From Opitutales bacterium (GTDB lineage: Bacteria > Verrucomicrobiota > Verrucomicrobiia > Opitutales > PNEW01), in assembly GCA_965219535.1 (NCBI GenBank), contig CBDCNV010000002.1:1470001-1502000 (forward strand): a DNA stretch of 32,000 bases, read 5' to 3'. Below are positions 217-31,887 of this stretch, in pieces (the first letter of the stretch is position 1; the number at the start of each line of letters is the position of its first letter). A program made the translations under genes and the position numbers. The notes under the pieces were generated by a model. It made no database searches, was not told the origin of the DNA, and saw only the letters and a program-made list of their open reading frames with translations.

Positions 217-311
217 GCCGAAGAAGAGGGATAGCCACAAAAGGCACAAAAGGCGCAAAGAAGAGTTTTGAACCGCGGATATCGCAGATATGCGCGGATG
301 TTGATTTAGAT

Positions 312-480
312 CAGGTGAAACACGGTTCTTGATCTCAATGTCATCCCTCCTGCATTTGCAGGATGGATTGACTACGGCTATTCCCTAGCGCTTTTTTAAA
401 ATGTAATTTTAAAAAACGCGTAGGAAAAATCCGACACTCAGCTAGCTGAGTTATTGCGATCATGCACCGAGTTTCACCTG
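312..480 (+). repeat. Core element copy A (forward): 28-bp terminal inverted repeats enclosing three hairpins
   Basis: CAGGTGAAACACGGTTCTTGATCTCAAT at 312-339 pairs with ATTGCGATCATGCACCGAGTTTCACCTG at 453-480. Internal hairpins: GTCATCCCTCCTGCA-TTT-GCAGGATGGATTGAC, the AT-rich CTAGCGCTTTTTTAAAA-TGTAA-TTTTAAAAAACGCGTAG, and ACTCAGC-TA-GCTGAGT. Confidence 0.9.
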
Positions 481-733
481 AGCTTTCTCCCCGTTCTTCC
501 CGAACTTCCTGTAAAAAATCTCTTTTCTTTTTATGTGTCTCTTGTGCCTCTTGCCTGCCGGCCATAGCCTTGGCGACGGCTGGTGGCCAACAATCTTAAC
601 TTTTTTTTTATCGGCGTTCATCCGCGTTATCAGCGATTAATTCTTTTCGTTCTTCCTGTGTTTCCTGTTAAAGTTTTTTATTTTTGTTTTTTATCTTTCT
701 CTAATATCCTTCGCTAATTAGTTTAGAGATCAG

Positions 734-1495: not shown

Positions 1496-1720
1496 GCGAA
1501 GAGCGCTCTCGCGCGGGGAGAAAGAGGGAATAGCCACAGCATTAAATGAAGATTTATGAATGATGAATGCAGAATGGAGAGGGATAGCCACCAGCCGTCG
1601 CCAAGGCTATGGCCGGCAAGCAAGAGGCACAGAAGGTACAAGAGGGATAAGAATAAATTTAACCACGAATGAACACGAATCGACACGAATAAAAGAGAGA
1701 AGAAATAGTAGTAACAAAGT

Positions 1721-1889
1721 CAGGTGAAACACGGTGCTTGATCTCAATTACATCTCACCCGTATCTACGGGAGCGATGTTACGGCTATTCCCTAGCGCTT
1801 TTTTAAAATGTAATTTTAAAAAAGCGCGTAGGAAACATCCGACACTCAGCTGTGCTGAGTTATTGCGATCAAGCACCGTGTTTCACCTG
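1721..1889 (+). repeat. Core element copy B (forward, class II first hairpin)
   Basis: Same TIRs. The first hairpin is replaced by the compensated variant TTACATCTCACCCGTA-TCT-ACGGGAGCGATGTTA. The left flank 1651-1717 is 67/67 identical to the left flank of the inverted copy E. Confidence 0.9.
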
Positions 1890-2131
1890 AGCTTAGTCCT
1901 ATTTCATTTATTTTTTGCCTAGCAGCCATAGCATTGGTGACGGTTGGTGTCCTACAACCTTAATTATTCATTTTATCGGCGTTCATTCGCGCTATCCGCG
2001 GTTCAGTCTTCCCGATCTTCTCGGTCTTCCTGTAAAAAATCTTTTTTGTGCTTCTTGTGCCTCTTGTGGCCAACTCTTCTATTCCTGCTTGTGCCGGTTA
2101 TCGGTTAAACTAGAGTGAGGGTTCTATTAAA

Positions 2132-3784: not shown

Positions 3785-3807
3785 GCGGGAAAATGCAAAA
3801 TCTTATT

Positions 3808-3979
3808 CAGGTGAAACACGGTGCTTTATCTCAATGTCATCTCTCCTGCATCTGCAGGAGTGATTGACTACGGCTATTCCCCAGCGCTTTTTTAAAATTG
3901 TGATTTTAAAAAACGCGTAGGAAACATCCGACATCCCGCTGTGGCGGGATTATTGCGATCAAGCACCGTGTTTCAACTG
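3808..3979 (+). repeat. Core element copy C (forward)
   Basis: Same architecture. The third hairpin carries the compensated variant ATCCCGC-TGT-GGCGGGAT instead of ACTCAGC...GCTGAGT. Confidence 0.9.
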
Positions 3980-4042
3980 GGCTTACTTCCCTTACGTCCC
4001 GTAGAAATCTTTCATGTGCTTCTTGTGCCTCTTGTGGCTATC

Positions 4043-4966: not shown

Positions 4967-5239
4967 ATTATTTTATATCAACAAGTATATGCGACTGATC
5001 TCATTTTATCGCTTTTAAAGTAATTAACGAGTCAAAAGTTCATTTCAATTTTCGATTTTCGATTGCCGATTGTCGATTGAAGAGAGATTGCCGATTGTAG
5101 ATTTGAGAAAAATTTAACCGCGGATAATACGGATAGGCGCGGATGGGAAATAAAGGAGTCGAAAGTCAAATGAGGGAATAGCCACAAAAAGCACAAAAGG
5201 CACAAAAAAATTAAAAAGATAAGAAATAAAAAGAGCTAT

Positions 5240-5410
5240 CAGTTGAAACACGATGCTTGATCGCGATGTCATCCCACCCGCATTTGCGGGAGGGATTGAC
5301 TACGGGTGATCCCTAGCGCTTTTTTTAAATCATCATTTAAAAAAACGCGTAGGAAACATCCGACACTCAGCTGTGCTGAGTTATTGAGATCAAGCACCGT
5401 GATTCACCTG
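5240..5410 (+). repeat. Core element copy D (forward)
   Basis: CAGTTGAAACACGATGCTTGATCGCGAT ... ATTGAGATCAAGCACCGTGATTCACCTG. The first hairpin apex is CCCGCA/TGCGGG. Confidence 0.9.
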
Positions 5411-5678
5411 ATCTTTTTTTCCGAACTTTCTGTCCTTCCTATATAAAATCTTTCTTTTCTTTTTGGAAGATGTCGCTTCGCTCGGTAGTGCCTCTTGTGG
5501 CTAATTAATCTTTGCTTTAAATTATATCCGCGTTCATTGGTTGATGTCGTCCCGCTGCTGCGCGACTCGGTAGTGTTATCCGCGGTCAGCCGTCACCCGT
5601 TGGGCTATGGCTGACAGGTACTGCGCGTCCCTCCAGAAAACGCACCGCTTATACACTTTTCCCATTATCGCATTTCCC

Positions 5679-9224: not shown

Positions 9225-9329
9225 CCTGAACCCTGAACCCTGAACCCTGAACCCTGAACCCTGAACCCTGAACCCTGAACCCTGAACCCTGAACCCTGAA
9301 CCCTGAACCCTGAACCCTGAACCCTGAAC
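9225..9329 (+). repeat. Perfect heptanucleotide microsatellite (CCTGAAC)x15, ending 4 nt before the HAD start codon
   Basis: I counted 15 uninterrupted units from 9225 to 9329. Confidence 0.95.
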
Positions 9330-9333
9330 CCCA

Positions 9334-11441: not shown

Positions 11442-11553
11442 TTTTGGATAGCCACAAAAAGCACAAAAGGCACAAGAGGGACAAGAATAAATTTAACCAC
11501 GAATGAACACGAATCGACACGAATAAAAGAGAGAAGAAATAGTAGTAACAAAT

Positions 11554-11723
11554 CAGGTAAAACACGATGCGTTATCTCAATAGCTCAGCATAGCTGAGCG
11601 CCAGATGTTTCCTACGCGTTTTTTTAAATTGTGATTTAAAAAAAGCGCTAGGGATCACCCGTAGTCAATCCACCCGCAAATGCGGGATGGATGACATTGA
11701 GATAAAGCATCGTGTTTCACCTG
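11554..11723 (-). repeat. Core element copy E (interior inverted relative to A-D and G-I)
   Basis: Hairpin order is reversed: GCTCAGC-ATA-GCTGAGC first, then the AT-rich hairpin, then GTCAATCCACCCGCA-AAT-GCGGGATGGATGAC. The flanks are in the same orientation as those of forward copies. Confidence 0.9.
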
Positions 11724-11900
11724 ATATTTCTTCCCGATCTTCCCGACTTTCCTGTAAAATTCTTTCTTTTCTTTTTTGTGTCTTCTGTGCCTTATGTGGC
11801 CAACTCTTCTTCTCCTTGCCCTGAGTTTAGTCGAAGAATGCGGTTCAAAATTTTAACCTTGAACCGTGTACCTTGAACCCTGAACCTTGCCGAAGGCAAA

Positions 11901-12747: not shown

Positions 12748-12749
12748 GT

Positions 12750-14907: not shown

Positions 14908-15086
14908 CGTCAAAAAGTCACCAGCCGTCGCCAAGGCTGTGGGCGTCAGGCAAAAAAGAAATTTACACCGCGGAGGTGGAGATTGAGAGTAGATAGTCAC
15001 TTTATCAAAGGGGTATCAGTGAAAAAAACCACGAATGAACACGAATAGGCACGAATAAAAGAGAGAAGAAATAGTAGTAACAAGAT

Positions 15087-15256
15087 CAGGTGAAACACGA
15101 TGCTTTATCTCAATAGCTCAGCATAGCTGAGCGCCAGATGTTTCCTACGCGTTTTTTTAAATTGTGATTTAAAAAAAGCGCTAGGGATCACCCGTAGTCA
15201 ATCCACCCGCAAATGCGGGATGGATGACATTGAGATAAAGCATCGTGTTTCACCTG
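15087..15256 (-). repeat. Core element copy F (interior inverted)
   Basis: The last ~142 nt are identical to copy E. The right flank CTTTCTTTCCGAACTTCCCGGCCTTCCTGTAAAAG matches the right flank of forward copy H. Confidence 0.9.
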
Positions 15257-15473
15257 ATCTTTCTTTCCGAACTTCCCGGCCTTCCTGTAAAAGTCTTTTT
15301 TGTGCTTTTGGAAGATCTAGCTTTGCTCTGGTAGTGACCAATTTATTTTATTTTTAAAATTACATTCGTGTTCATTCGTGGTCAATTATTTCGTATTTCC
15401 TTTATGAACTATTGACGTTTTAACCTTTTCACTCATCCATAACATAAACATAAAATTCAATTAGGAGAACCCT

Positions 15474-15836: not shown

Positions 15837-15855
15837 CGCGCCAGCACTGGCGCGC
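15836..15855 (+). other. 9-bp GC hairpin GCGCGCCAG-CA-CTGGCGCGC overlapping the last base of the VOC stop codon
   Basis: Direct reading. TAG is at 15834-15836. Confidence 0.5.
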
Positions 15856-16177: not shown

Positions 16178-16205
16178 TTTCGACTTTGGACCTTAGACTT
16201 TCGAC
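16178..16205 (-). repeat. GTCNAAR array abutting the stop of the minus-strand membrane-protein gene, in that gene's sense orientation
   Basis: The reverse complement reads TAA GTCGAAA GTCTAAG GTCCAAA GTCGAAA. Confidence 0.85.
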
Positions 16206-16676: not shown

Positions 16677-16757
16677 CGGGTTACCTCCAAGTTGGAATTA
16701 ATAAATCAGGACCTTTGTCTAAATAATGCTAAGTATGGAGGGAAGGCAATGAATTAA

Positions 16758-16789
16758 GTCAAAAAGTCAAAAGGTCAAAAAGTCAAAAA
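16758..16789 (+). repeat. GTCAAAAR octamer array (4 units)
   Basis: Preceded by TAA. Followed by GGGGG, a GCGC hairpin word and TTAGGTKT octamers. Confidence 0.85.
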
Positions 16790-16852
16790 GGGGGATGCGC
16801 GGTAGCGCGTGTTAAGTTTTAAGTGTTAGGTTTTAGGTAATTGACTTAAAAC

Positions 16853-18227
16853 GGTACAACCAGGACATGGTTTACAGATTTAGATCAAGACATGGTTTAC
16901 ACTTTGTGAGGGATGCTGAACGGTAATCGGGTTATATAGTTAAGTTAATGTTATGCGGTTTTAGAGGTTTGGCTGGCATTGTTGGGGCCGCAAGCGGCCC
17001 CAATGAAAGCAGCCGTTGAAAGGTCAATCTGACCGATTCTGAGAGTGGCAAAGTAAACATCGAAGTGTACCGTGTCTAGTGGTTTTAGTCCAACGCTCCA
17101 ACCGGCGAGGGCGGTGGAGATAGGAATCTGGAAGCCATCGAGTTTGATAGACCCGCTTTTTGAGACCCGGCGAGTCATCAAATCATAGCTGATATCGGCA
17201 GGAGTGCCACCGTAAGGATGAGAGCTGTGCTGATAGATTTCAGAGGGCGTGCTCATGGCAAGAGCCGCATGGGGGCGTTCTTCATTGAAGGTCTTGCGCC
17301 ACAGATCGAAGGCCACCTGTTGGGTGCGAAGATCGTCCTGGGCATGTTTTTGCAACTCCTCTTTGATATCGCGATGGAGACGCTCATGGGCACCGTTATC
17401 CTGGGGTTTACCCGGACGTCCACGCTCGAGATTGATCCCTAAGGCCAGCCACCAGGCCGCCAGTTTGCTCAGGCCCAGGACCGCATTGGCACTGGCAAAG
17501 GGACTGCCGTTGTCGCTGCGGATGCAAGCGGGAAGTCCATAGCGTTCAAAGAGTTTTGTGAAGCATTCACGCACCGCTTCGCTACGGGCTGAACTGAGCA
17601 CCCGCACCTCTAATACATAGCGGCTCCATTCATCCCGTACCGTCAAAGGTTCACAACGGTTGCCATCAACGGTGTGCCACCACCCTTTGAAGTCTACGCT
17701 CCACACTTCGTTACAGCCACTGGCCTTGACGCTGCGGTAAAGGCGTCCGCTTTTTTGAGCGCTTCTGCGCCGACGCTTTTGCACCAGTCCCGCACGTTCC
17801 AAGACCCGTTTCACGCTCGAGTCTGAGGGGGCCTTCCCGTAACGCCTCTGGTAAAGCTCGCGGATCTTGTAGGGGCCCCACGTCGGGTGATGATGCTTGA
17901 GTTTGATCAGCGTACATACTACTGATTCGGATAGTTCCTGAACACTTCCATGCGGTCGGCGTGAGCGCTCGTGCAACCCCTCCATCCCTTCGCTCAGGAA
18001 GCGCTTCTTCCATTTATACCCTGTCGGTCGGCTGATCCCGTAGTCTTCACACAGCTCGTTCATCTTTACTCCCGGTTGCATCGATTCCAGGGCGAATTGG
18101 TATCTTTGGTCCATTTTATTTGTTTCCTTCCATGACATCATACCCCTTACTTAGCATCCTTCTTTCTTTGGCAATCTGTAAAGGATGTCCTGAACCTTTT
18201 GTGTAAAGAATGTCTTGAACCTATACC
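16853..18227 (-). mobile_element. IS481-family insertion sequence (about 1.37 kb) with terminal inverted repeats that each carry two tandem CARGACATNNTTTACA sites
   Basis: Left end: CAGGACATGGTTTACA at 16861-16876 and CAAGACATGGTTTACA at 16886-16901. Right end, reverse complement: CAGGACATCCTTTACA within 18175-18192 and CAAGACATTCTTTACA within 18200-18217. GGTACA/GGTATA lies at the outer tips. The exact ends and the target duplication are not resolved. Confidence 0.75.
16951..18141 (-). CDS. IS481-family DDE transposase (HTH plus rve integrase core)
   Basis: 396-aa intact ORF. It has an N-terminal HTH (ISRPTGYKWKKRF). The DDE region comprises WSVDFKGWW, IRSDNGSPFAS and PGKPQDNGAHERLHRDIKEE. 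Confidence 0.9.
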   Translation of the reverse strand: MMSWKETNKMDQRYQFALESMQPGVKMNELCEDYGISRPTGYKWKKRFLSEGMEGLHERSRRPHGSVQELSESVVCTLIKLKHHHPTWGPYKIRELYQRRYGKAPSDSSVKRVLERAGLVQKRRRRSAQKSGRLYRSVKASGCNEVWSVDFKGWWHTVDGNRCEPLTVRDEWSRYVLEVRVLSSARSEAVRECFTKLFERYGLPACIRSDNGSPFASANAVLGLSKLAAWWLALGINLERGRPGKPQDNGAHERLHRDIKEELQKHAQDDLRTQQVAFDLWRKTFNEERPHAALAMSTPSEIYQHSSHPYGGTPADISYDLMTRRVSKSGSIKLDGFQIPISTALAGWSVGLKPLDTVHFDVYFATLRIGQIDLSTAAFIGAACGPNNASQTSKTA

Positions 18228-18302
18228 ATACCTATAACATCTGACGAAGACGAAGAGGCAGACGAAGACGAAGAGGACTTGCGCTAAGTATATCCCAAAC
18301 GC

Positions 18303-18355: not shown

Positions 18356-19467
18356 TTTGGTGCCAGATCACCGATGGAGGCGCCTAGGGTATCCTGGTCT
18401 TCTGGTGGGAGGCGTCCGGCGGTTTCGGGAAGGGGGGTGTCGAACTGGTAGCTTGGGTCGGTCTGCTGTCGTTTATAGGTTTCGCGCATCTCGCGCCAGG
18501 CCCCGATCATCGTTCGTGGTTTCGGCATATCGTCGGCGATCTCGCGACTAAGCTTTTTCAGGTTGTAACAGGGAACGCCCGCGTACATGTGGTGCTCTGC
18601 ATGCCAGTTCATGTGCCAGTAGAGAAACTGTGAAAGCGGGTCCAGTTTAATGGAGCGAACACAGAGTCGAAAGTCGGGAATATTATCACGCAGACCGCAG
18701 TGCATGGGCGCGCCGCAAAGGTAGCGCCATATGCCCCCCATAAAAAACGAGAAGGTAAATAACAATGGCAGCAGCCAGAGTTTGAAAACGATCGCCACCA
18801 CGAGAACGGACAGATGGAAGAGGAGGATAACCCGCGCATTGTTCACGGCTTTCAAACGCTCCTCAGGGCAGTCCTCATAGACGGCTTCTATCCATTCATT
18901 GTCGCCCGGGAATTTACCGAAGGCGGTCCAGATGGTCCGCTTCATAACGGGAATAAGTCCGGAGGACTCAAACCCGCCAGTAAAATTGAAGGTGAGCAAC
19001 TGCAAGAGGTAAAGCGGATTAAAAGTAGGGATCTTGGGCAATAAAACCTCCCGATCGCCATCCGGGTGCAGAGTGTAGCGGTGATGATAGGTATGGCTCA
19101 TCGCGTAGTCACGATGGTTGTGGTAGCCGAGGACACAGTAAATCCAAAGAAAGAATCGGTTGAGCCACCTTGTTTTGAAGACCGTGCCATGCCCCAGTTC
19201 ATGGTTTGGAAAAGCGAAAAAGCTCGTGATCACACTATGCAGGTAAAGTGAAACGGCGAACAAAACCCAATGCTGTTGTAAGAACAGGAAGTAGGTCAGC
19301 GCACCGGTGCAGGTGAAAAGAAAGAGGTGCCCCAAAGACTGGAACCATCCCTTCAGGTCACTGCGTTGGCTCAATTCGAGCAGCCGATCTCTTGGAACCG
19401 GACATCGATACCATTCTACGTGCAGGTTCTTGCGGGCTTCTTCGAGGGGGGGATAGGTTGTATTCAT
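18343..19467 (-). CDS. Membrane fatty-acid desaturase family protein
   Basis: 374-aa ORF with three histidine boxes: HELGHG, HNHRDYAMSHTYHHRY and HAEHHMY. It also has hydrophobic helices. Confidence 0.85.
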   Translation of the reverse strand: MNTTYPPLEEARKNLHVEWYRCPVPRDRLLELSQRSDLKGWFQSLGHLFLFTCTGALTYFLFLQQHWVLFAVSLYLHSVITSFFAFPNHELGHGTVFKTRWLNRFFLWIYCVLGYHNHRDYAMSHTYHHRYTLHPDGDREVLLPKIPTFNPLYLLQLLTFNFTGGFESSGLIPVMKRTIWTAFGKFPGDNEWIEAVYEDCPEERLKAVNNARVILLFHLSVLVVAIVFKLWLLPLLFTFSFFMGGIWRYLCGAPMHCGLRDNIPDFRLCVRSIKLDPLSQFLYWHMNWHAEHHMYAGVPCYNLKKLSREIADDMPKPRTMIGAWREMRETYKRQQTDPSYQFDTPLPETAGRLPPEDQDTLGASIGDLAPKVLS

Positions 19468-19502
19468 TATTTAATTTTATAATCAGGACGATGATTCTAT
19501 AA

Positions 19503-19534
19503 GTCAAAAAGTCAAAATGTCAAAAGGTCAAAAA
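19503..19534 (+). repeat. GTCAAAAR octamer array, identical to 22011-22042
   Basis: GTCAAAAAGTCAAAATGTCAAAAGGTCAAAAA. Confidence 0.85.
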
Positions 19535-19808
19535 GTTAATCGATTGCGGATATCGGATTTTTGGGAGAAAGAGGGATAGCCACTACCGAGCGAAGCGAGA
19601 TCTTCCAAAGGCACAAGAAGCACAAGAGGCTCAAGAAAGAAATATGGAACTCAGGGACTCAGGAATCAAAGATTAAATAACCGTGGAGGCGCAGAGGTGG
19701 AGATTGAGAATAGATAGTCACTTTCTCAAAGGGGTATCAGTGAAAAAAACCACTAATGGACAAGAATTGGCACGAATAAAAGAGAGAGGAAATAGTAGTA
19801 ACAAAAGT

Positions 19809-19974
19809 CAGGTGAAACACGGTGCTTGATCTCAATTACATCTCACCCGTATTTACGGGAGTGATGTTACGGCTATTTCATAGCGCTTTTTTTAAATTGT
19901 GATTTAAAAAAACGCGTAGGAAACATCCGACACTCAGCTATGCTGAGTTATTGAGATCAAGCACGATTCGACTG
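19809..19974 (+). repeat. Core element copy G (forward, class II, degenerate right arm)
   Basis: Near-identical to copy B over the left TIR and first hairpin. The right TIR carries a small deletion (GCACGATTCGACTG). Confidence 0.85.
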
Positions 19975-20327
19975 AGCTCGTCACAGGCCGTGGTTCACCT
20001 TACAATTGTTCCAGGTCTCTTTATAAGGCTCTTTGTATATACTCTTCATAAATCTAAAACCTAACACCTAAAACTTAACACGAGCGTTAGCGCTCAACCT
20101 TTCCGCTTGCCACGCCATAGCTCGACTGAGCGTCGGCGGGTTCTCCCCGCTCTTCCTGTAAAAATCTTTCTTTTCTTTTTTGTGTCTCTTGCCTGCCGGG
20201 CATAGTCCCGCGACTGCGGGACGACGGCTGTTGCTTTTTGTGGGTAATAAATCTACTCCTTATATTGTATTCGTGTTCATTGGTGGTTAATTTTCTTCAT
20301 ATTTGATTAAGCTCAATTCCGAAAAGT

Positions 20328-22010
20328 TTGGCGGAATTGCTTATCAAGGATTGTAATATGACTTATTCAGCAAGAAATGTGATGGTAATTTCTATACTCG
20401 TGGTGCAATCTATTAGTTTCGTGGTTGCACAAGAGGAAAGACCTGATTTTTGGAAAGCTGAAGGAGCGCTGGGGGTCGTCGCTACGGGTGACGAGTCATC
20501 GGCTGATGCTGGTATTGGGATACTAAAAGATGGAGGGAATGCTGTCGATGCCGCCGTCTCCAGCTTGCTCGTTCTGACGGTGACCGACACGGGAAATTTT
20601 TGCTTTGGCGGTGAAATTCCGATCATCGTTTATGATGCGAAACGCGGTGTCGTGGAAGTTCTGAGTGGTCAAGGAGCGGCTCCCCGGTTGGCAACTTTGA
20701 AATATTTTAAGAAGAAGGGTGAAGGTTCCGTTGATGGACCGGCTGTCCCGGGCGCCCTGGACGCCTGTTTGACGGCATTGGAAAGATATGGCACGCTAAC
20801 TTTTGCCGAGGTAGCAAATCCGGCTTTGAGCATCTTAGATCAGCATAAGGAGCCCTGGCATGCTAACATGGCTAAAACTATTCGCCGGCTCATTGAAGCT
20901 GAAAAAGGTTCACCGGATGATCGACAGCGTGGACTAAGGCTTGTTGCCGATTATTTCTACCGTGGCCCTATCGCCCGAGAGTTAGATACTTGGAGTCGAG
21001 AGCATGATGAACTATTGCGCTATTCCGATTTAGCGACCCATGTGACCCGCATTGAGGATCCCGTCTTAGTAAAGTACCGTGGATACACCGTTTACAAATG
21101 CGGTCCATGGACCCAGGGACCCTGCCTTTTGCAGGGGTTGCGTCTACTGGAAGGTTTCGACCTAAAGGCCTTGGGGCATAACAGTCCGGATTACATTCAT
21201 GTTGTTATCGAGGCGATGAAGTTGGCATTAGCTGATCGGGATACTTATTACGCCGACCCTCTATTTGAAGACGTTCCGTTGAAAGCGTTGTTATCCGAGA
21301 ACTATGCCAATATTCGCCAATCGCTAATCGATATAAAGCGTGCCTCATTGGTTCATCGTCCCGGGGATCCTCAGGCGGGCAAAGCTTTGTTGAAAAAAAA
21401 CCAAACCCTACGCGGTAAAAGTGGTCAGGTCAAAGATACCACAACCTGTCTTGCCGCAGATCGATGGGGTAATGTCGTAGCGGCCACCCCTAGCGGTTGG
21501 GGTGGAAGGCTTGCCGGTGACACTGGTATCGTGCTCGGCACGCGACTCAAAAGTTTCAATGTATGGAAAAATCATCCGAATGTCATTGAGCCGGGTAAAC
21601 GCCCGCGAATCACCTTAACGCCGACATTAGTAATGAAGGATGATAAACCAGTGCTTGCTGTGAGTGTCGCTGGGGGTGACAAACAGGACCTGGCGACGAT
21701 GAATTTACTCTTGAATTATATCGAGTTTGGATTAACGCCTGCCGAGTCCATGATCACTCCACGTTTTGGGACCGACCACCTCGTTGGTTCTTTTCAGCAA
21801 CCCCCACCAAAACTAGGAAGTTTATACCTTTATTCTGCTGTAGACGAACAAACCATGGATGCATTGAAGACCCGCGGTCACCTTATCGAGATCGTGGATC
21901 CTGAGGTCTTACCGTATGGCCGGTCTTGTGTTTTGAGTTTCGAACCAAAGTCAGGGCTTATGCAGGCGGCGGGCGATCCCACCGCGGATCACCATGCGAG
22001 GGGGTTTTAA
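20328..22010 (+). CDS. ggt: Gamma-glutamyltransferase (Ntn-hydrolase, GGT family), secreted
   Basis: 560-aa ORF from TTG 20328. The in-frame ATG at 20358 gives a cleaner signal peptide (MTYSARNVMVISILVVQSISFVVAQ). GGNAVDAAV N-terminal motif; autoprocessing/nucleophile region KDTTTCLAADRWGNVVAATPSGW. Confidence 0.85.
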   Translation: MAELLIKDCNMTYSARNVMVISILVVQSISFVVAQEERPDFWKAEGALGVVATGDESSADAGIGILKDGGNAVDAAVSSLLVLTVTDTGNFCFGGEIPIIVYDAKRGVVEVLSGQGAAPRLATLKYFKKKGEGSVDGPAVPGALDACLTALERYGTLTFAEVANPALSILDQHKEPWHANMAKTIRRLIEAEKGSPDDRQRGLRLVADYFYRGPIARELDTWSREHDELLRYSDLATHVTRIEDPVLVKYRGYTVYKCGPWTQGPCLLQGLRLLEGFDLKALGHNSPDYIHVVIEAMKLALADRDTYYADPLFEDVPLKALLSENYANIRQSLIDIKRASLVHRPGDPQAGKALLKKNQTLRGKSGQVKDTTTCLAADRWGNVVAATPSGWGGRLAGDTGIVLGTRLKSFNVWKNHPNVIEPGKRPRITLTPTLVMKDDKPVLAVSVAGGDKQDLATMNLLLNYIEFGLTPAESMITPRFGTDHLVGSFQQPPPKLGSLYLYSAVDEQTMDALKTRGHLIEIVDPEVLPYGRSCVLSFEPKSGLMQAAGDPTADHHARGF

Positions 22011-22042
22011 GTCAAAAAGTCAAAATGTCAAAAGGTCAAAAA
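22011..22042 (+). repeat. GTCAAAAR octamer array starting 1 nt after the GGT stop codon
   Basis: TAA followed by GTCAAAAAGTCAAAATGTCAAAAGGTCAAAAA. Confidence 0.85.
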
Positions 22043-22179
22043 GTGGAAATCCTGAAAGCCAGAAGTCATGAAAGCCAGAAAGCCGGATTGATGCACGATC
22101 CAGGATGCAAGATAATCCTACGGTATCCGCTTTTTCGCTTTCACGCATTATAGGATGTCGGGCTACACCCTCGGTACGC

Positions 22180-23328: not shown

Positions 23329-23358
23329 CTTCTCGATAGTTATCGAGAAGATGAATAA
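23321..23358. promoter_or_regulatory. Perfect 18-bp inverted repeat (2-nt spacer) enclosing the amidohydrolase start codon
   Basis: TTATTCATCTTCTCGATA at 23321-23338 and TATCGAGAAGATGAATAA at 23341-23358. The ATG (reverse complement CAT, 23326-23328) lies in the left arm. Confidence 0.6.
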
Positions 23359-23361
23359 AAA

Positions 23362-23385
23362 GTCAAAAGGTCAAAAAGTCAAAAG
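23362..23385 (+). repeat. GTCAAAAR octamer array (3 units)
   Basis: GTCAAAAG GTCAAAAA GTCAAAAG, then a G-run. Confidence 0.85.
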
Positions 23386-23465
23386 GGGGGGGAGCGGAAA
23401 TCAGTGAACAGTAAACAGTGAACGGTGAGGGGAATGTGATTGCTTATTAATACACTGATTAAGCT

Positions 23466-23542
23466 AGGTGGAACGGGCTGTCCCTAGCGCGTTTGGATAT
23501 GTTTGTAAGTAAGAAGCGTGCTAGGGATAGCCCGCTCCACCT
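23466..23542. repeat. 26-bp imperfect inverted repeat (23/26 matching) with a 25-nt loop; shares the CCCTAGCGC word with the core element
   Basis: AGGTGGAACGGGCTGTCCCTAGCGCG at 23466-23491 versus CGTGCTAGGGATAGCCCGCTCCACCT at 23517-23542. It lies between the amidohydrolase 5' end and the paralog 1 3' end. Confidence 0.6.
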
Positions 23543-23573
23543 TAACACCTAAAACTTAACACTGATCGATAGA

Positions 23574-25799
23574 TCATTCGATCGTTATCTCATCTACTTC
23601 GACGGTTAGGTCATCGCCATCTTCGTTAGTGAAGGTGGCATTTATACTTCGCGTGGGCTGAGGGGTGTTGTCGGACTTAAAATTGTTCTGGGTGATCAAT
23701 CGATCGAAGCCACGGGTTGTCGATCCGCTCTCGGCAACGACGATTGAAGCTCCATTTGTCTGAACGAGGTCACCTCCGGTTATACGTAATCCGGGGTTGC
23801 CGGCGGCGACGGTGAAGGACCCTTCTCCAAATAAGAGGTGAGGAACTGCATCGCCATCGGCATCGATGTCGCCGACGGTTAAGCGTACCGCGATCGGTAC
23901 TCCGCGCGCATCGATACCAACTTTGCCCGTGCTACCACTGAAAACTGTATTCGATAACTGCATGCCTCCCATTCCCGTTGAATTGATCACTTCGACGAGG
24001 GTGACGTCCGCTTGTGCATCATAGACTTGTCCCTCGGGGAAGAGTGCCTGGTTAACGGCATTGATTCTACCGACGGTGAAAATACTGAAGAAGGTATTGG
24101 AGTCTGCTCCATCGATAACTACACTGGGTCTTCCGGTGACATACTCGACTGCCTGGTTGTAGCGCGGGGGTATTGCCGGGGGCAGGAAAGTGGTCGGGTC
24201 GAGGGTTACAGTAAAGTTGCCTGCGCCTGAGAACTCTACCTGCACAATGTCCTCGGTTTCGTCCATGAAGGAGACGCGAGTGATCTGATTGGGTCTTGCC
24301 AGGAGCCGGATACTTTCCCCGGTGAGTAAAATCTGATCGAATACATTACCGTTAGGATGCTGAATATTTTCCCCGGCGATATCACCCGTTCCTTCAAGGA
24401 CCAGAGGCACGGAGGGAGCCGCAACTGTGATGACCGCGGTATCACTATCAGCTGTACCTTCGGCGTTAGTTATCTGTACCCAGAAGTTTGTATCCGCATT
24501 GAGTGCACCTGTGTCTAAGACATTGCTCGTAGCGCCGGTGACAGGACTGGCGGTGTCACCACTGTTACCGGTAAACCACTGGTAAGTTAAATCTTCACCG
24601 CTGGCGGCAACGGACAAACTCGCGGATGCACCTGATGCAACTTCCTGGCTCGTGGGTTGCGTAGTGATAGCTGGAGCATCTGCTGGAGGCGGTGCCTCAG
24701 ATCCAGTTCCGGGAGCACCAATGGGTGTAAATCCAAAATCGTCAATGGCGGTACGGCTTCTTTCAGGATTAATATTAGGATCATCCTTCATCACTATCCT
24801 GCTAATGCCACCCGGGGCTCCCAGTTCCACTGCATTAATCGTTACAAAGCCAGGTTTGAACTCAGGTGTTATATCCCCTTCTAAATTTGTAAGGGTGGCG
24901 ATTAAGTTATCGTTTGTATCATAGACATCAACTGACCCATCGACATCTGAGCTACCTGATAAGACCACGGTAGCCCCGAAAAAATCAATTTCATATGCAG
25001 GGGTTTCAAAGGTAACAGTCGCTTCTTCACCATTAAATATCGCATAAGTATGAGGAATTGATCGCACACGTCCACCAGCAGCAGGTTCACCAAAAAATTG
25101 GATGAGACCTCCTTCAAAAGAAGCAGTAGTGGGTGGCGTTCCAATGACTAACGGTTCTGACTGACCTGCGCCCGCGCCAAATTCACTAAACATTGTGTAA
25201 AAAGTGTTGTTAGAGGGAAAATCCGTCAGGGTGAATCCCAGGTCATCGAGTGATAATTTTCCGGTTACATTCGAAAGCTTTACTTCAATAATGCCGCCGA
25301 GAAAGTTAAAATCATCTTCATCAAAAAAATTACCACTCTCTGCGACAAAGCTATATAATGTGGGGTTGGTATCGGGGCTGATATTAGTCGGCAGCCCTTC
25401 GATTACGCCGTCCTCGCCGATAAGGACGATCGCCTGACTATCTGCTCCGAACGCCGATTCATTGAGCACTCCCCTGATCTCCATCCTGCCAGCACCCGTG
25501 TTCTCAGCCGCATAAAATTCAATAAATTGAAGGCCTCTTGAGGATGAAATTCTCCCCTCCTGTCCAGGTGCCAGGGTTATCGCTTTTGTACCTGAATGTA
25601 AGAGCGCAGGATCCTCTAAAGTCTCCACAGTAAAACCGGATAGCGTAACCGTGTTTGGCTCCTGACCTATGATGATATTGCCTTCACCGCTGATGTCCTC
25701 GAAATCGGTGAACACCTCCAGGTCTTGAGGCAGGGCAATGAGAAGCAGCGGGGATAAAGTTGAGAAAATTATGAGCGCGAGAGAATTTTTGAAGAACAT
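23574..25799 (-). CDS. Secreted 741-aa protein, tandem paralog 1. Domains: signal peptide, two divergent beta-sandwich-like modules ending in (I/L)DD(L/F)GFT, an Ig-like domain, a ~255-aa invariant C-terminal domain and an acidic tail. No family recognised.
   Basis: Signal peptide MFFKNSLALIIFSTLSPLLLIALP. Ig-like block ITTQPTSQEVASGASASLSVAASGEDLTYQWF...VQITNAEGTADSDTAVITV. The C-terminal 281 aa are nearly identical to paralog 2. Confidence 0.9.
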   Translation of the reverse strand: MFFKNSLALIIFSTLSPLLLIALPQDLEVFTDFEDISGEGNIIIGQEPNTVTLSGFTVETLEDPALLHSGTKAITLAPGQEGRISSSRGLQFIEFYAAENTGAGRMEIRGVLNESAFGADSQAIVLIGEDGVIEGLPTNISPDTNPTLYSFVAESGNFFDEDDFNFLGGIIEVKLSNVTGKLSLDDLGFTLTDFPSNNTFYTMFSEFGAGAGQSEPLVIGTPPTTASFEGGLIQFFGEPAAGGRVRSIPHTYAIFNGEEATVTFETPAYEIDFFGATVVLSGSSDVDGSVDVYDTNDNLIATLTNLEGDITPEFKPGFVTINAVELGAPGGISRIVMKDDPNINPERSRTAIDDFGFTPIGAPGTGSEAPPPADAPAITTQPTSQEVASGASASLSVAASGEDLTYQWFTGNSGDTASPVTGATSNVLDTGALNADTNFWVQITNAEGTADSDTAVITVAAPSVPLVLEGTGDIAGENIQHPNGNVFDQILLTGESIRLLARPNQITRVSFMDETEDIVQVEFSGAGNFTVTLDPTTFLPPAIPPRYNQAVEYVTGRPSVVIDGADSNTFFSIFTVGRINAVNQALFPEGQVYDAQADVTLVEVINSTGMGGMQLSNTVFSGSTGKVGIDARGVPIAVRLTVGDIDADGDAVPHLLFGEGSFTVAAGNPGLRITGGDLVQTNGASIVVAESGSTTRGFDRLITQNNFKSDNTPQPTRSINATFTNEDGDDLTVEVDEITIE

Positions 25800-25840
25800 G
25801 GCGATCCCATTTGTCCGGTTAATATTAAAACGTATGAATT

Positions 25841-25869: not shown

Positions 25870-26054
25870 ATTTTAACCGCGGATAACACGGATGAACGCC
25901 GATAAAATAAATAGTGAAGATTGTTAGCCACAAAAGGCACAAGAGGCACAAGAAAGAAATTTGCACCGCAGAGGCTCAGAGGCGCAGAGGTGGAATTGGA
26001 GGAGTCTAAAGTCGGAGGTCGAAAGTCGAAAGTTGGAAAAAGCAAAATATTGTT

Positions 26055-26225
26055 CAGTTGAAACACGGTGCTTGATCGTCAATGTCATCCTTCCCGCAGA
26101 TGCGGGAGGATTGACTACGGCTGATCCCTAGCGCTTTTTTTAAATAATGATTTAAAAAAACGCGTAGGAAACATCCGACACTCAGCGATGCTGAGTTATT
26201 GAGATCAAGCACCGTGTTTCAACTG
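26055..26225 (+). repeat. Core element copy H (forward), 256 nt upstream of the paralog 1 start codon
   Basis: CAGTTGAAACACGGTGCTTGATCGTCAAT ... ATTGAGATCAAGCACCGTGTTTCAACTG. First hairpin: GTCATCCTTCCCGCA-GA-TGCGGGAGGATTGAC. Confidence 0.9.
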
Positions 26226-26361
26226 AGCTCTCTTTCCGAACTTCCCGTTCTTCCTGTAAAATCTTTTTTGTGCTTCTTGTGCCTCTTGTGGCCAACTCTA
26301 CTTTTACCCTGCGTCTCTGCGGTGAACTTTCTTAATCTAAAACCTTACACTGATCGATAAA

Positions 26362-28627: not shown

Positions 28628-28634
28628 ACTATAG

Positions 28635-28666: not shown

Positions 28667-28842
28667 GGGAAGAGCGGTGCAATGTCGGATTGCAGATGTC
28701 GGAATGTAAGATGTCGAGCTTAGCTTTCGGTAGCGGATTGATCTGGAATGGCAGGTTATCAAACTTCTCTCTTGATAACAGATTGGTAATGGATTGCCGC
28801 GCTGCGCTCGCAATGACAAAAAGGGGGGGAATTCAGTGGGAA

Positions 28843-28926
28843 CAGTGAACAGTGAACAGTGAACAGTGAACAGTGAACAGTGAACAGTGAACAGTGAACA
28901 GTGAACAGTGAACAGTGAACAGTGAA
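28843..28926 (+). repeat. Perfect heptanucleotide microsatellite (CAGTGAA)x12 between paralog 3 and the paralog 2 promoter
   Basis: I counted 12 uninterrupted units. Shorter CAGTGAA/GGTGAAC runs occur at 9142-9181, 13360-13388 and 23402-23427. Confidence 0.95.
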
Positions 28927-31299: not shown

Positions 31300-31485
31300 A
31301 TTTTATCCGCGGATAACGCGGATGGGAAATAGAGGAGTCGAAAGTCGAAGATCGATCAGGGAATAGCCACAAAAAGCACAAAAGGCACAAAACCGAAATT
31401 TGCACCGCAGAGGCGCAGAGGTGGAATTGGAGGAGTCTAAAGTCTAAGGTCGAAAGTCGAAAGTGGGAAAAAGCAAAATGTTGTT

Positions 31486-31655
31486 CAGGTGAAACACGGT
31501 GCATGATCTCAATGTCATCCATCCCGCAGATGCGGGAGGATTGACAATGGCTATTCCTAACGCGTTTTTTAAAATCATGATTTTTAAAAACGCGTAGGAA
31601 ACAGCCGACACTCAGCTGTGCTGAGTTATTGCGATCAAGCACCGTGTTTCACCTG
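31486..31655 (+). repeat. Core element copy I (forward), 256 nt upstream of the paralog 3 start codon
   Basis: Same architecture, embedded in an upstream region homologous to 25800-26054. Confidence 0.9.
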
Positions 31656-31887
31656 ATAGTTGTTCTCTGTCATACTATAAAATCCATAGTAATGTCTTTT
31701 CTCCAACTTAATTCCTAATCCGTGCTATCTGCGTCACCCGCGGTTCACTCTCCCCGATCTTCCCGGCTTTCCTGTAAAATCTTTATAATTTATTTCATCT
31801 GTGTTATCTGCGGTTCAATTTCTTAACCTAAAACCTAACACTTAAAACTTAACACGCGCTTTAGCGCTTCTCTGCGGTGAATGGGAT

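What the first reader, a model, noticed from the sequence alone, without database searches (positions are those of the whole stretch)
19468..20327. Intergenic regions are assembled from a shared vocabulary of short-period words arranged around the cores
The 860-bp spacer between the desaturase and GGT genes is an example, and it contains essentially nothing but recurring words. The left part carries, in order: GTCAAAAR x4; CGATTGCGGATATCGG; GGGATAGCCAC..GGCACAAGA nonamers with an inserted TACCGAGCGAAGCGAGATCTTCCA word; GCAGAGG words; and CACGAAT-type words. Core G follows. The right part then carries the reverse complements of TTAGGTKT octamers, a GCGC-hairpin word, CTTCCTGTAAAA, GGCACAAGA, CAGCCGTCG..hairpin..GGCAGG and CACGAAT. 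The same words, in varying order and copy number, fill 168-733, 1481-2131, 3642-4042, 4967-5723, 9000-9333, 10030-10592, 11442-11900, 12735-12971, 14888-15473, 15837-16205, 16677-16850, 23329-23573, 25800-26361, 28588-28995 and 31231-31887. Words left of a core are mostly forward and words right of it mostly reverse-complemented, which gives long imperfect palindromes. About 27% of the window is non-coding, and most genes look monocistronic and insulated by these blocks. I know of no described system with this grammar.
Basis: seen in the sequence. Interest (0 to 1): 0.7.

Follow-up and report, generated by a model that had tools for sequence, protein, structure and literature searches.

The report
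Mirrored repeat mosaics between bacterial genes
The gaps between genes in this uncultured Opitutales (Verrucomicrobiota) lineage are filled with a shared set of short tandem repeats, tiny hairpin insertions and a 172-bp inverted-repeat element stacked as mirror images; comparable mosaics are known in E. coli, Neisseria and cyanobacteria, but I found no description of this set, which is unusually strict and dense.

Summary
27.7% of the window is non-coding. 52% of non-coding positions lie in exact 10-mers shared by at least 3 regions, against 2-3% in shuffles. Word orientation is mirrored: GTCAAAAR-type words are 126+/5- in left halves of spacers and 3+/57- in right halves, whatever the strand of the neighbouring gene.

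The window belongs to a genus-level Opitutales clade with at least 8 independent long-read assemblies, so it is not an artefact.

Sister contigs differ almost only by whole-unit changes in tandem arrays. Orthologous spacers differ by presence or absence of 24-30-nt mini-elements inserted inside other repeats, and spacers are swapped at word boundaries.

The words also occur about 2.2 Mb from the orthologous region in relatives. The 172-bp "core" is clustered: about 13 copies in 40 kb, and few elsewhere in a 4.49-Mb genome. Cores therefore do not organise the grammar.

The core's stems are kept by compensatory changes: 20 of 51 pairs, against 9.1 in shuffles.

My best reading is a nested community of foldback-like, non-autonomous repeats, partly co-opted as gene punctuation. 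The closest analogues are BIME/REP, NIME, cyanobacterial STRR/SDR, BrickBuilt and foldback transposons. I rate it a new variant of a known kind. Any function remains untested.

The parts
19501..19536 (+). Outermost left word: tandem 8-mer array GTCAAAAR x4.5. Read on the desaturase strand it is (YTTTTGAC)n, ending 34 nt upstream of the start codon.
   Evidence: TRF. Family D2 has 8 loci in the window. It supplies a TTGACA-18-TAGAAT promoter-like site on the - strand.
19541..19556 (+). CGATTGCGGATATCGG word (GCGGATRT family).
   Evidence: Sequence; word map. Conserved in orthologous spacers.
19575..19637 (+). GATAGCCAC + (GGCACAAGA)n 9-mer array. Its mirror partner lies at 20164-20191.
   Evidence: TRF; family D13; inverted pairs I2/I4.
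19584..19607 (+). Mini-element S1 (TACCGAG + mini-hairpin + GAGATCTTCCA, 24 nt), inserted at GCCAC^AAAAGG.
   Evidence: Absent from the orthologous spacer in L198, L199 and L200. 26 distinct contexts elsewhere. Variable stems are longer than in shuffles.
19662..20045 (.). Central 384-nt block (E, G and P words plus the core). It is present in the window strains and absent from the orthologous spacer of L198, L199, L200 and L204. It is flanked by TCA on both sides.
   Evidence: Alignment A3. Polarity is ambiguous, because the left junction also exists in a paralogous copy. Folds with z = -7.4.
19808..20003 (+). Core: a 172-bp MITE-like element with 29-bp terminal inverted repeats (TCAGGTGAAACACGGTGCTTGATCTCAAT) and three internal hairpins. 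In this copy the right TIR is split by S2.
   Evidence: Alignments A1, A5 and A8. TIR pattern statistics. Covariation.
19965..19988 (+). Mini-element S2 (GATTCGACTGAGCTCGTCACAGGC, 24 nt) inserted in the core's right TIR.
   Evidence: Absent from 8 other window cores. The same site is occupied in 4 other distinct cores. It is polymorphic at an orthologous core: present in L198 and L204, absent in the window and L197.
20050..20096 (-). Reverse-complemented TTAGGTKT words plus a GCGC hairpin. On the - strand this forms a terminator-like module: hairpin, then T-rich words.
   Evidence: TRF; terminator-like hit at 20096-20081; recurs at 16795-16835.
20140..20191 (-). Right-arm words: CCCCGCTCTTCCTGTAAAA plus a T-rich degenerate mirror of the 9-mer array.
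   Evidence: Family D17, 7 copies; inverted pairs with 19614-19642.
20192..20232 (-). Mini-element S3 (long form): CAGCCGTCG + GTCCCGCAGTCGCGGGAC palindrome + TATGCCCGGCAGG, reverse-complemented.
   Evidence: 18 distinct contexts. The short form is inserted inside a GTCAAAAR array in L197 and at GGCT^CAAG in L199. Folds at -11.2 kcal/mol, z = -2.6.
20046..20400 (+). Right part of the spacer plus the first codons of GGT. Nearly invariant across 5 genomes: 2 differences in about 350 nt.
   Evidence: The GGT body differs by about 10% at all sites and 21.8% at third codon positions.
311..481 (+). Core copy.
1720..1890 (+). Core copy; about 90% identical to the 19748-19978 copy.
3807..3980 (+). Core copy.
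5239..5411 (+). Core copy.
11553..11724 (-). Core copy whose interior is inverted relative to the same left-flank word (TAGTAGTAAC).
15086..15257 (-). Core copy with interior inverted. The orthologous copy is present in L197.
26054..26226 (+). Core copy at the centre of a 376-nt foldback (25921-26296).
31485..31656 (+). Core copy.
9225..9331 (+). CCTGAAC x15 heptamer array ending 2 nt before the HAD-hydrolase ATG. Copy number differs among three 99.9%-identical strains.
   Evidence: TRF; indels.
28840..28926 (+). GAACAGT x12 heptamer array; copy number differs between strains.
   Evidence: TRF; indels.
22011..22044 (+). GTCAAAAR array starting immediately after the GGT stop codon. It is 100% identical to 19503-19536.

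Best explanation
The spacer is a layered, imperfectly palindromic stack of lineage-specific non-coding repeats. The host is an uncultured Opitutales (Verrucomicrobiota) genus.

**The three kinds of repeat**
1. Short-period tandem arrays (6-14 nt) that grow and shrink by replication slippage. The outermost are GTCAAAAR on the left and YTTTTGAC on the right, and they abut the coding sequences.
2. Very small elements (24-39 nt: S1, S2, S3 and an 18-nt GTCCCGCnnnnGCGGGAC palindrome). Each has conserved flanks around a variable mini-hairpin and lies precisely inside other repeats.
3. A 172-bp MITE-like core with 29-bp terminal inverted repeats and three hairpins, concentrated in this genomic region.

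**How the stack arises and changes**
- The mirror symmetry exists because each spacer is, or descends from, a foldback-type unit whose two arms are inverted copies.
- Later events nest inside it or resize the arms.
- Copies recombine with one another. This gives deletions, inversion of core interiors, spacer replacement and gene-order changes.

**What is shown**
- Repetition and mirroring.
- Unit-wise array polymorphism.
- Presence/absence of the mini-elements at orthologous sites.
- Compensatory maintenance of stems.
- Regional clustering of cores.

**What is inferred**
- The mini-elements and cores are, or were, mobilised in trans by an enzyme acting on folded single strands or on the TIRs.
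- The host has co-opted parts of the stack as promoter -35 boxes, U-rich leaders and hairpins that punctuate monocistronic genes.
For: **Repetition and mirroring**
- 10-mer sharing in non-coding sequence.
- Recurring word order.
- Orientation rule: A words are 126+/5- in left halves and 3+/57- in right halves, regardless of the strand of the adjacent gene.
- Of 53 genes, 21 carry the array upstream and 24 downstream in the expected orientation, against 1 and 2 in the opposite orientation. Arrays start 0-30 nt after stop codons.

**Foldback potential**
- z = -13.2 and z = -7.4 for two composites.

**Slippage**
- Nearly all differences among three 99.9%-identical contigs are whole-unit indels in arrays.
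- Further unit changes appear at orthologous spacers.

**Mini-elements**
- Orthologous presence/absence of S1, S3 and a 112-nt insert at the same GCCAC^AAAAGG site.
- S2 is present or absent at the same position in orthologous cores.
- 26, 5 and 18 distinct contexts for S1, S2 and S3, including inside tandem arrays.
- S1 stems vary but stay complementary.
- The 18-nt palindrome is nested in S1, in S3 and in the loop of core hairpin 3.

**Core**
- 36 distinct sequences in about 200 kb sampled.
- 20 of 51 pairs show double changes, against 9.1 +/- 1.9 in shuffles and 4-9 in slid controls.
- The interior is found in both orientations next to the same flanks.

**Recombination at repeats**
- A 3.2-kb deletion between the repeats at 12845-12910 and 16072-16137.
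- Synteny breaks exactly at words.

**Not an artefact**
- The same architecture appears in at least 8 independent long-read assemblies, one of them a circular 4.98-Mb genome.
Against: - No empty site and no target-site duplication could be found for the core.
- No transposase with matching ends was found. The only IS in the window (IS481 family) has unrelated ends.
- The 384-nt central block could be a deletion in the relatives rather than an insertion here.
- Orthologous presence/absence of mini-elements could also come from gene conversion between paralogous repeats.
- Repeated non-coding positions diverge 4-4.5% between genomes. Third codon positions diverge 17-19% and non-repeated non-coding positions 5-14%. 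Purely selfish, neutral DNA should not be that conserved. This points to selection or homogenisation, although recombination mosaicism confounds the comparison.
- S1 and S2 fold only weakly by nearest-neighbour energies.
Confidence: 0.55

Rival explanations
1. A selected gene-boundary code. The mirrored arrays would be functional cis-elements maintained by selection. In the sense strand every gene reads 5'-(YTTTTGAC)n..ATG..stop..(GTCAAAAR)n-3'. The arrays would then act as -35 boxes or U-rich ribosome-loading leaders upstream, and as complementary partners or insulators downstream. Spacer hairpins, or 5'-3' UTR pairing, would set mRNA processing and stability, and array slippage would tune expression.
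For: - Orientation is tied to gene ends and arrays abut the CDS: 0-30 nt after stops, 3-106 nt before starts.
- A TTGACA-18-TAGAAT site is formed by the array upstream of the desaturase.
- TGAACA-17/18-TATTAT sites formed by the GAACAGT array plus the TATAAT block lie upstream of two + genes.
- Repeated words diverge about 4-fold more slowly than third codon positions, and more slowly than unique non-coding DNA.
- The 350 nt upstream of GGT are nearly invariant across 5 genomes.
- Precedent: the H. influenzae hmw heptamer repeat lies in a 5'-UTR hairpin processed by RNase III and tunes expression (PMC12721329).
- BrickBuilt carries bidirectional promoters (PMC4596501).
Against: - Promoter-like and terminator-like sites are not more frequent than in shuffles.
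- Only about 40-45% of genes carry the arrays at a given end.
- Orthologous spacers can be wholly replaced by different word sets with the genes intact.
- The low divergence coincides in part with recombination tracts that include coding sequence.
- The two arms are not exactly complementary at the variable eighth base.
- No expression data are available.
Confidence: 0.25
2. One long foldback MITE family. Each core-containing spacer would be a decayed copy of a single ancestral 400-800-bp palindromic transposon, with the words as its subterminal repeats, rather than a community of independent elements.
For: - The order of words is conserved around cores.
- Paralogous composites share 82-95% identity over 225-340 bp.
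- The 384-nt block behaves as a single indel.
- The whole composite folds as one hairpin.
Against: - Mirrored arrays occur genome-wide in spacers that never had a core.
- Cores are about 100-fold enriched in one region while the words are not.
- Mini-elements and arrays vary independently of the core.
- No composite-level target duplication or empty site was found.
Confidence: 0.15
3. Artefact, or a purely local duplication. The repeats would be assembly errors or a one-off tandem duplication confined to this contig.
For: - The window's closest contigs are low-coverage assemblies, labelled 5x and 8x.
- Cores are locally clustered.
Against: - The same spacers are reproduced base for base in three contigs.
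- The architecture appears in at least 8 assemblies from different samples, at up to 36x and including a circular genome.
- The words are present at a locus orthologous to a site 2.2 Mb away.
Confidence: 0.01
4. A CRISPR-like or other defence array, or a known structured RNA family.
For: There are short direct repeats in intergenic DNA, and there are hairpins.
Against: - Units are contiguous, with no unique spacers between them.
- There are no cas or defence genes among 19 window genes or in the flanks.
- Rfam gives no hit at gathering score for the window, nor at E <= 1 for the spacer.
Confidence: 0.01

Closest known systems
REP / BIME (bacterial interspersed mosaic elements) of Enterobacteria and pseudomonads, and REPINs mobilised by RAYT transposases
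   Same: - Extragenic, with short palindromic units whose stems vary by compensatory changes.
- Combined with other short motifs into mosaics.
- Inverted pairs form larger hairpins (REPINs).
- Long vertical persistence.
- Proposed roles in mRNA stability, attenuation and recombination (PMC3733652, PMC3116915, PMC3184786).
- Opitutus terrae, another member of Opitutales, is reported as rich in GTAG REPs (PMC3733652).
   Different: - Here most of the material is unstructured tandem 7-9-mers, not GC-rich palindromes.
- Orientation is mirrored about the spacer centre rather than alternating.
- The mini-hairpins do not meet the published GTAG/CGTC family definitions.
- No RAYT was seen in the DNA sampled.
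Cyanobacterial STRR heptamer arrays with small dispersed repeats (SDR; Elhai et al. 2008, Genome Res 18:1484) and Nezha-type MITEs
   Same: - Heptameric tandem arrays in intergenic DNA.
- 21-27-nt elements found inserted in arrays, in MITEs and in one another.
- Co-resident MITEs of about 130-170 bp.
- The STRR/SDR details are from my own knowledge of the paper, which is not held. Its existence and Nostocaceae restriction are cited in PMC5861425, and Nezha in PMC3184786.
   Different: - A different phylum.
- SDR-like repeats are reported only from Nostocaceae (PMC5861425).
- As far as I know, strict mirror symmetry and arrays hugging gene ends are not described there.
- No sequence comparison with SDR families could be made.
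Neisseria intergenic mosaic elements (NIME) and Correia elements
   Same: - Large mosaic intergenic regions in which several repeat families are interleaved.
- The MITE has TIRs and carries promoters and an IHF site.
- Associated with recombination (PMC3733652, PMC3184786).
   Different: - NIME units are 50-150-bp blocks bounded by 20-bp inverted repeats, not short-period tandem arrays.
- There is no mirrored layering.
BrickBuilt, a MITE containing a minisatellite, in Porphyromonas gingivalis (PMC4596501)
   Same: - A tandem short repeat embedded in a MITE-like unit with inverted ends.
- Always intergenic.
- Variable unit number.
- Bidirectional promoter activity.
   Different: - A single 23-nt repeat and 19 copies per genome.
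- It does not fill most spacers, and there are no nested mini-elements.
Foldback (FB) transposons of Drosophila and other eukaryotes (my own knowledge)
   Same: - Long inverted arms built from short tandem repeats of variable number around a central segment.
- Very variable length.
- Promote rearrangements.
   Different: - Eukaryotic.
- Transposition is documented there but not here.
Intergenic simple-sequence contingency repeats, e.g. (ATCTTTC)n upstream of H. influenzae hmw1A (PMC12721329)
   Same: - A heptamer array between promoter and start codon.
- Copy number changes between close strains.
- The array pairs with a complementary arm in a long hairpin.
   Different: - There it is a single locus with a demonstrated effect on expression.
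- Here there are dozens of arrays and no expression data.

Membership tests
MITE (for the 172-bp core) | Terminal inverted repeats | tested here: met
   29-bp TIRs; 17 pattern hits against 0.02 expected. The TIR stem is paired in 94% of cells across 30 copies.
MITE (for the 172-bp core) | Small, non-coding, many dispersed copies | tested here: met
   166-184 bp. 9 copies in the window and 36 distinct sequences in the loci sampled. Copies are clustered regionally.
MITE (for the 172-bp core) | Target-site duplication | tested here: not met
   No consistent direct repeat flanks 24 oriented copies.
MITE (for the 172-bp core) | Filled versus empty orthologous sites | tested here: not met
   A junction search for all full-length cores found no empty site. 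Spacers lacking a core differ wholesale.
MITE (for the 172-bp core) | Parent IS or transposase with the same ends | tested here: inconclusive
   The IS481 element in the window has unrelated ends. Whole genomes could not be scanned.
REP / BIME / REPIN | 20-40-nt imperfect palindrome tagged by a terminal GTAG or CGTC | tested here: inconclusive
   S3 has CGTC directly 5' of its stem. Its stems are 7 bp starting G-C and it has no CCA tail. The published CGTC families have 8-9-bp stems starting A/T-A/T and CCA tails (PMC3733652).
REP / BIME / REPIN | Mosaic clusters of units with other short motifs in extragenic DNA | tested here: met
   Word maps.
REP / BIME / REPIN | Cognate RAYT (Y1/HUH transposase) in the genome | not testable with these tools
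   No PF01797-type gene appears in the gene tables of about 200 kb sampled.
STRR / SDR of Nostocaceae | Heptameric tandem arrays in intergenic regions | tested here: met
   CCTGAAC x15, GAACAGT x12 and others.
STRR / SDR of Nostocaceae | Elements of about 21-27 nt inserted in arrays, in MITEs and in each other | tested here: met
   S1 in CCTGAAC arrays; S3 in GTCAAAAR arrays; S2 in the core TIR; the 18-nt palindrome in S1, S3 and core hairpin 3.
STRR / SDR of Nostocaceae | Host lineage and sequence identity with the SDR1-8 families | tested here: not met
   The host is Opitutales. SDR is reported only from Nostocaceae (PMC5861425).
Foldback transposon | Long inverted arms composed of short tandem repeats around a central segment | tested here: met
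Foldback transposon | Evidence of transposition of the whole unit | tested here: not met
   The ends of the 384-nt indel are not element termini. No empty sites were found.
CRISPR array | Repeats separated by unique spacers, with cas genes nearby | tested here: not met
   Units are contiguous. No cas domains were found.
Rfam RNA families | Match to a curated covariance model | tested here: not met
   0 hits at gathering score for the whole window. 0 hits at E <= 1 for 19400-20400.
Phase-variable intergenic SSR (contingency locus) | Array between promoter and start codon that changes unit number among close strains | tested here: met
   The CCTGAAC array at 9225-9331 varies in whole heptamer units among the three strains: about one unit gained in L001 and two lost in L002. 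Six other arrays also vary.
Phase-variable intergenic SSR (contingency locus) | Unit number changes expression | not testable with these tools
   No transcript or reporter data are available.

The most novel reading that the evidence does not exclude
The mirrored arrays could be a selected, genome-wide gene-boundary code in an SD-poor lineage. Each monocistronic mRNA would carry (YUUUUGAC)n in its leader and (GUCAAAAR)n in its trailer. These would pair with each other, or with the other arm of the same spacer, to form long stems. Such stems would be RNase III-type substrates, as in the hmw 5'-UTR. They would set translation and mRNA half-life gene by gene. Slippage of the arrays would act as a per-gene rheostat, and the shared arrays would let single genes be shuffled as cassettes.
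Probability: 0.15. Interest if true: 0.8.

Novelty: new variant of a known kind. Interest (0 to 1): 0.58.

Why it matters
Bacterial intergenic DNA is usually short and unique. Here about a quarter of the sampled DNA is non-coding, and about two thirds of the window's non-coding DNA is built from roughly twenty recurring words with a strict mirror rule.

If this is only selfish DNA, it is one of the densest repeat communities seen in a bacterium. It would also extend 'very small mobile elements', so far reported from Nostocaceae, to the PVC superphylum. In addition it shows directly how such repeats drive deletions, gene-order changes and gene turnover in a glycan-degradation region.

If the words are functional, as their slow divergence and their position at gene ends hint, this would be a natural system of modular, tunable gene punctuation.

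There is also a practical consequence. These spacers break short-read assemblies, which fits the absence of any paired core match in 241 million metagenome records. Lineages like this one therefore become visible only with long reads.

Tried and rejected
- **Rfam.** Gathering scores on the whole window and E <= 1 on the spacer gave nothing.
- **Metagenome scan with the core TIR.** All 111 hits were single and consistent with chance. No paired TIRs were found.
- **Plasmid collection, distant BLAST of the spacer.** No match.
- **Promoter and terminator consensus scans.** Counts did not exceed shuffles. I used only the individual recurrent sites, and only as hints.
- **Search for empty sites of the core** by joining its flanks: none found. 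An attempted filled/empty comparison of L007 against L209 was not alignable.
- **Search for a target-site duplication** around 24 oriented cores: none.
- **The 384-nt block as a transposed unit.** Rejected as proof, because its left junction recurs in a paralogue.
- **The near-identity of the 25800-26361 spacer between genomes as evidence of selection.** Weakened, because the adjoining 700 nt of coding sequence is equally undiverged, which suggests a recombination tract.
- **IS481 as parent of the core.** Its ends are unrelated.
- **Looking up a protein from a distant MAG locus directly.** I went round this through a homologue search.
- **One look-up was redundant.** P0122 returned the window's own contigs.
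- **Elhai et al. 2008** could not be read because it is not held.
Full report
**What is there**

The annotated GGT start is a TTG at 20328. Sister contigs call the start at 20358 or 20382.

Tandem Repeats Finder lists 84 short-period arrays in the window, nearly all in spacers. The repeat finder groups them into families that recur in 5-24 places.

Quantitatively:
- 27.7% of the window is non-coding.
- 52% of non-coding positions lie in exact 10-mers found in at least three different regions. Shuffled spacers give 2-3% and coding sequence 8%.
- With 9-mers the repeated share of non-coding DNA is 68%.
- About 65% of the 860-bp spacer itself matches other spacers. 'Essentially nothing but words' is therefore somewhat overstated.

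**The core**

Nine copies of a 172-bp element lie in the window. Each is bounded by 29-bp terminal inverted repeats (TCAGGTGAAACACGGTGCTTGATCTCAAT) and encloses three hairpins.

Two copies (11553, 15086) have the interior inverted relative to the same left-flank word.

On 30 distinct copies from several genomes:
- 95.9% of pair cells are standard pairs.
- 20 of 51 pairs carry compensatory double changes. Column shuffles give 9.1 +/- 1.9 (0 of 500 reach the observed value), and slid controls give 4-9.

The folded or symmetric architecture is therefore actively kept. The data do not say whether this happens at the level of single-stranded DNA, RNA, a symmetric protein site or palindrome repair.

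No target duplication, empty site or parent IS was found. I therefore call it MITE-like, not a proven MITE.

**The mirror rule**

Data come from eight loci, some of them orthologous.
- GTCRAAAR words are 126 forward and 5 reverse in the left halves of spacers, and 3 forward and 57 reverse in the right halves (Fisher p about 1e-38).
- The 9-mer, GCCAC, CACGAAT, GCAGAGG, CTTCCTGTAA and CAGCCGTCG words behave the same way.
- The rule does not depend on the strand of the neighbouring gene.
- The CCTGAAC and GAACAGT heptamer arrays are directional instead, and the small S1 element has no bias.

Composites fold as single long hairpins. 25921-26296 gives -106.7 kcal/mol, z = -13.2; the central block of the target spacer gives z = -7.4.

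An equivalent description is that each gene, read in sense, is bracketed 5'-(YTTTTGAC)n ... (GTCAAAAR)n-3'. Among 53 genes:
- 21 carry at least 2 units upstream and 24 downstream in that orientation, against 1 and 2 in the opposite orientation.
- The downstream array starts 0-30 nt after the stop codon. It starts directly after the GGT stop at 22011.
- The upstream array ends 3-106 nt before the start codon.

**Where it comes from**

The window is part of long-read metagenome contigs (ERZ25067264, 117 kb; ERZ25072670, 722 kb) that are 99.3-99.9% identical to it.

The core TIR finds only one genome with multiple hits among 185,579 species representatives: OY829953.1, 'MAG: Opitutales bacterium', 4.49 Mb.

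The GGT protein belongs to a 90%-identity cluster of 14 sequences on contigs of up to 5.05 Mb. These include that MAG and a circular 4.98-Mb genome. The host is thus a genus-level clade of Opitutales (Verrucomicrobiota). The same architecture in at least 8 independent assemblies excludes an assembly artefact.

**Genome-wide or local?**

The answer differs for cores and for words.
- **Cores are local.** In OY829953.1 the TIR hits fall in blocks at 1.976 Mb, 2.040-2.080 Mb (the orthologue of this window), 2.672-2.688 Mb and 4.264 Mb. With roughly 35% of TIRs matching the exact pattern, that means about 13 cores in 40 kb and only a handful in the remaining 4.4 Mb.
- **Words are not local.** They continue beyond both ends of the window, where cores stop.
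- In L209, a locus from yet another assembly and orthologous to the MAG's 4.26-Mb region, every native spacer carries mirrored arrays. 29-64% of each such spacer is covered by 10-mers from the window's non-coding DNA; 8 of the 9 give 42-64%. Coding sequence, which is the chance level, gives 12%. This includes spacers next to pyruvate kinase and an aminotransferase.

'Arranged around the cores' describes this region only. I sampled about 200 kb, not whole genomes.

**How it changes**

1. *Slippage.* The three near-identical contigs differ by a handful of substitutions and by whole-unit indels in seven arrays: CCTGAAC, ATCGAA, TGATATCCGACGTT, CATTCGTGTT, GAACAGT and one 7-mer. The 860-bp spacer is identical in all three.
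2. *Small elements*.
   - The orthologous desaturase-GGT spacer in the MAG lacks the 24-nt S1 element (TACCGAG..ATCTTCCA) that splits GCCAC^AAAAGG in the window.
   - Two other genomes carry a 112-nt insert at that same site, and a 30-nt S3 element (CCAGCCGTCG..GGCAGG) at GGCT^CAAG.
   - S3 also sits inside a GTCAAAAR array in L197.
   - S2 (24 nt) occupies the same position of the right TIR in five distinct cores. At an orthologous core it is present in L198 and L204 and absent in the window and L197.
   - S1 has conserved flanks around a variable mini-hairpin with GAA/GTA-type loops. Its stems (GGAC/GTCC, GAGC/GCTC, GGGT/ACCC, GCC/GGC) are longer than in shuffles, although predicted energies are weak.
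   - An 18-nt GTCCCGCnnnnGCGGGAC palindrome is nested in S1, in S3 and in the loop of core hairpin 3.
3. *Recombination.*
   - One strain lacks 3.2 kb between two copies of a 66-nt repeat.
   - Gene order differs between genomes: glyoxalase and sulfatase are swapped, and genes are gained or lost. Homology breaks at words.
   - Orthologous spacers can be replaced wholesale.
   - The 384-nt central block of the target spacer is absent from four relatives. Its left junction recurs in a paralogue, so it may equally be a deletion.

**Conservation**

Between the window and four relatives, divergence is:
- Third codon positions: 17-27%.
- Non-repeated non-coding positions: 5-24%.
- Repeated non-coding positions: 4-13%.

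The 350 nt upstream of GGT show 2 differences, while the gene body differs by 10%.

This is more conserved than neutral DNA should be. Three caveats apply:
- Divergence along the genes is itself mosaic.
- One low-divergence spacer sits in a tract that includes coding sequence.
- Only alignable sequence is counted.

Selection, biased conversion and recombination cannot be separated here.

**Interpretation**

I favour (0.55) a nested community of non-autonomous, foldback-like repeats. It would be shaped by slippage, by insertion of tiny hairpin elements and by recombination, and partly co-opted by the host.

Signs of co-option:
- The array supplies a TTGACA-18-TAGAAT site 27 nt upstream of the desaturase start.
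- GAACAGT plus the TATAAT block give -35/-10-like pairs upstream of two genes.
- A GCGC hairpin followed by T-rich words looks like a terminator.

The main rival (0.25) is that the arrays are a selected gene-boundary code. The precedent is the H. influenzae hmw heptamer repeat, whose 5'-UTR hairpin is cut by RNase III and tunes expression (PMC12721329).

A single decayed foldback MITE family (0.15) does not explain the core-less mirrored spacers. Artefact, CRISPR and known RNA families are excluded.

**Comparison with known systems**

Mosaic intergenic repeats are a known kind:
- BIME/REP/REPIN (PMC3733652, PMC3116915, PMC3184786).
- Neisseria NIME and Correia elements (PMC3184786).
- Cyanobacterial STRR arrays with SDR mini-elements. 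Elhai et al. 2008 is cited from memory and via PMC5861425, which states that SDR-like repeats are known only from Nostocaceae.
- The BrickBuilt MITE-minisatellite (PMC4596501).
- Eukaryotic foldback transposons.

This case shares features with each but fails or cannot complete the membership tests of all (see the table). My literature searches found no description of such repeats in Verrucomicrobia beyond GTAG REPs in Opitutus terrae.

I therefore rate it a new variant of a known kind, of moderate to good interest. The grammar is real and unusually strict, but its function is unknown and the 'cores' are a local feature.

Noticed in passing
window 12845-12910 and 16072-16137; L002: One sister contig (L002, 722 kb) lacks window 12930-16123. 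That 3.2 kb holds the glyoxalase, sulfatase and a 120-aa gene. The breakpoints lie in two copies of a 66-nt repeat (AGTTGCGGATTTATTATAAT..CCTGAAC), so this looks like a repeat-mediated deletion segregating among 99.9%-identical strains.
   Followed up: partly
window 16843-18230 (IS481-family transposase ORF 16951-18141): An IS481-family element is intact here. It is partly deleted in L001 (16838-17724 missing), frameshifted in L002, absent from this site in L197, and sits at other sites in L198, L204 and L208. It is an active or recently active IS whose ends are unrelated to the core.
   Followed up: partly
window 13444-14887: The sulfatase is split into two overlapping ORFs (366 aa and 142 aa) here and in L001. 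It is intact (423-448 aa) in L197, L199 and L200. This is probably a frameshifted pseudogene in the window lineage, or a sequencing error in a low-coverage assembly.
   Followed up: no
window 23574-31230: There are three tandem paralogues (741-744 aa, Ig_7 domain). Divergence between genomes is strongly mosaic, with third-position differences of 0-54% per 150 nt. This suggests gene conversion among paralogues or recombination between lineages. Relatives carry two or three copies.
   Followed up: partly
window 12735-14887 versus L197 138-2379 and L199 4524-6733: The order of the glyoxalase and sulfatase genes is swapped between genomes, and several genes (GH88, FG-GAP, amidohydrolase, the 156-aa ORF) are present or absent. 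Single genes behave like cassettes separated by repeat-filled spacers.
   Followed up: partly
window 19503-19536 and 22011-22044: Two GTCAAAAR arrays are 100% identical over 34 nt, including an unusual ATGTCAAAAG unit. They lie in direct orientation and bracket the spacer plus the GGT gene. This is compatible with insertion or exchange of GGT as a unit by recombination at the array.
   Followed up: no
window 20046-20400: The 350 nt upstream of, and just into, GGT are almost invariant across five genomes whose GGT bodies differ by about 10%. The switch at about 20400 is abrupt. This is either a recombination breakpoint or a strongly constrained regulatory and leader region.
   Followed up: partly
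window 2771-2831: The 73-nt spacer between two epimerase-family genes holds a 24-nt tandem repeat (GCTCAGGACAGGCCCTTCGACTAC x2.5) that is unrelated to the common vocabulary.
   Followed up: no
window 28790-28830; L070 about 2510; L209 about 1290 and 2365: A further recurrent word, GTCATTGCGAGCG(A/C)AGCG(C/T)GGC, often lies directly next to S1.
   Followed up: no
L206 5102-8636; L209 14331-22160: Stretches next to an HNH gene and an IS1595 transposase, and next to a phage-type integrase, have spacers without any of the words. Word-free spacers may mark recently acquired foreign DNA.
   Followed up: no
whole window: (YTTTTGAC)n contains TGA once per 8-nt unit. Three or more units therefore place a stop codon in all three frames on that strand. 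GC skew is positive throughout the window, and the directional CCTGAAC and GAACAGT arrays share one orientation here but the opposite one in L209. This is a possible link to replication direction.
   Followed up: no
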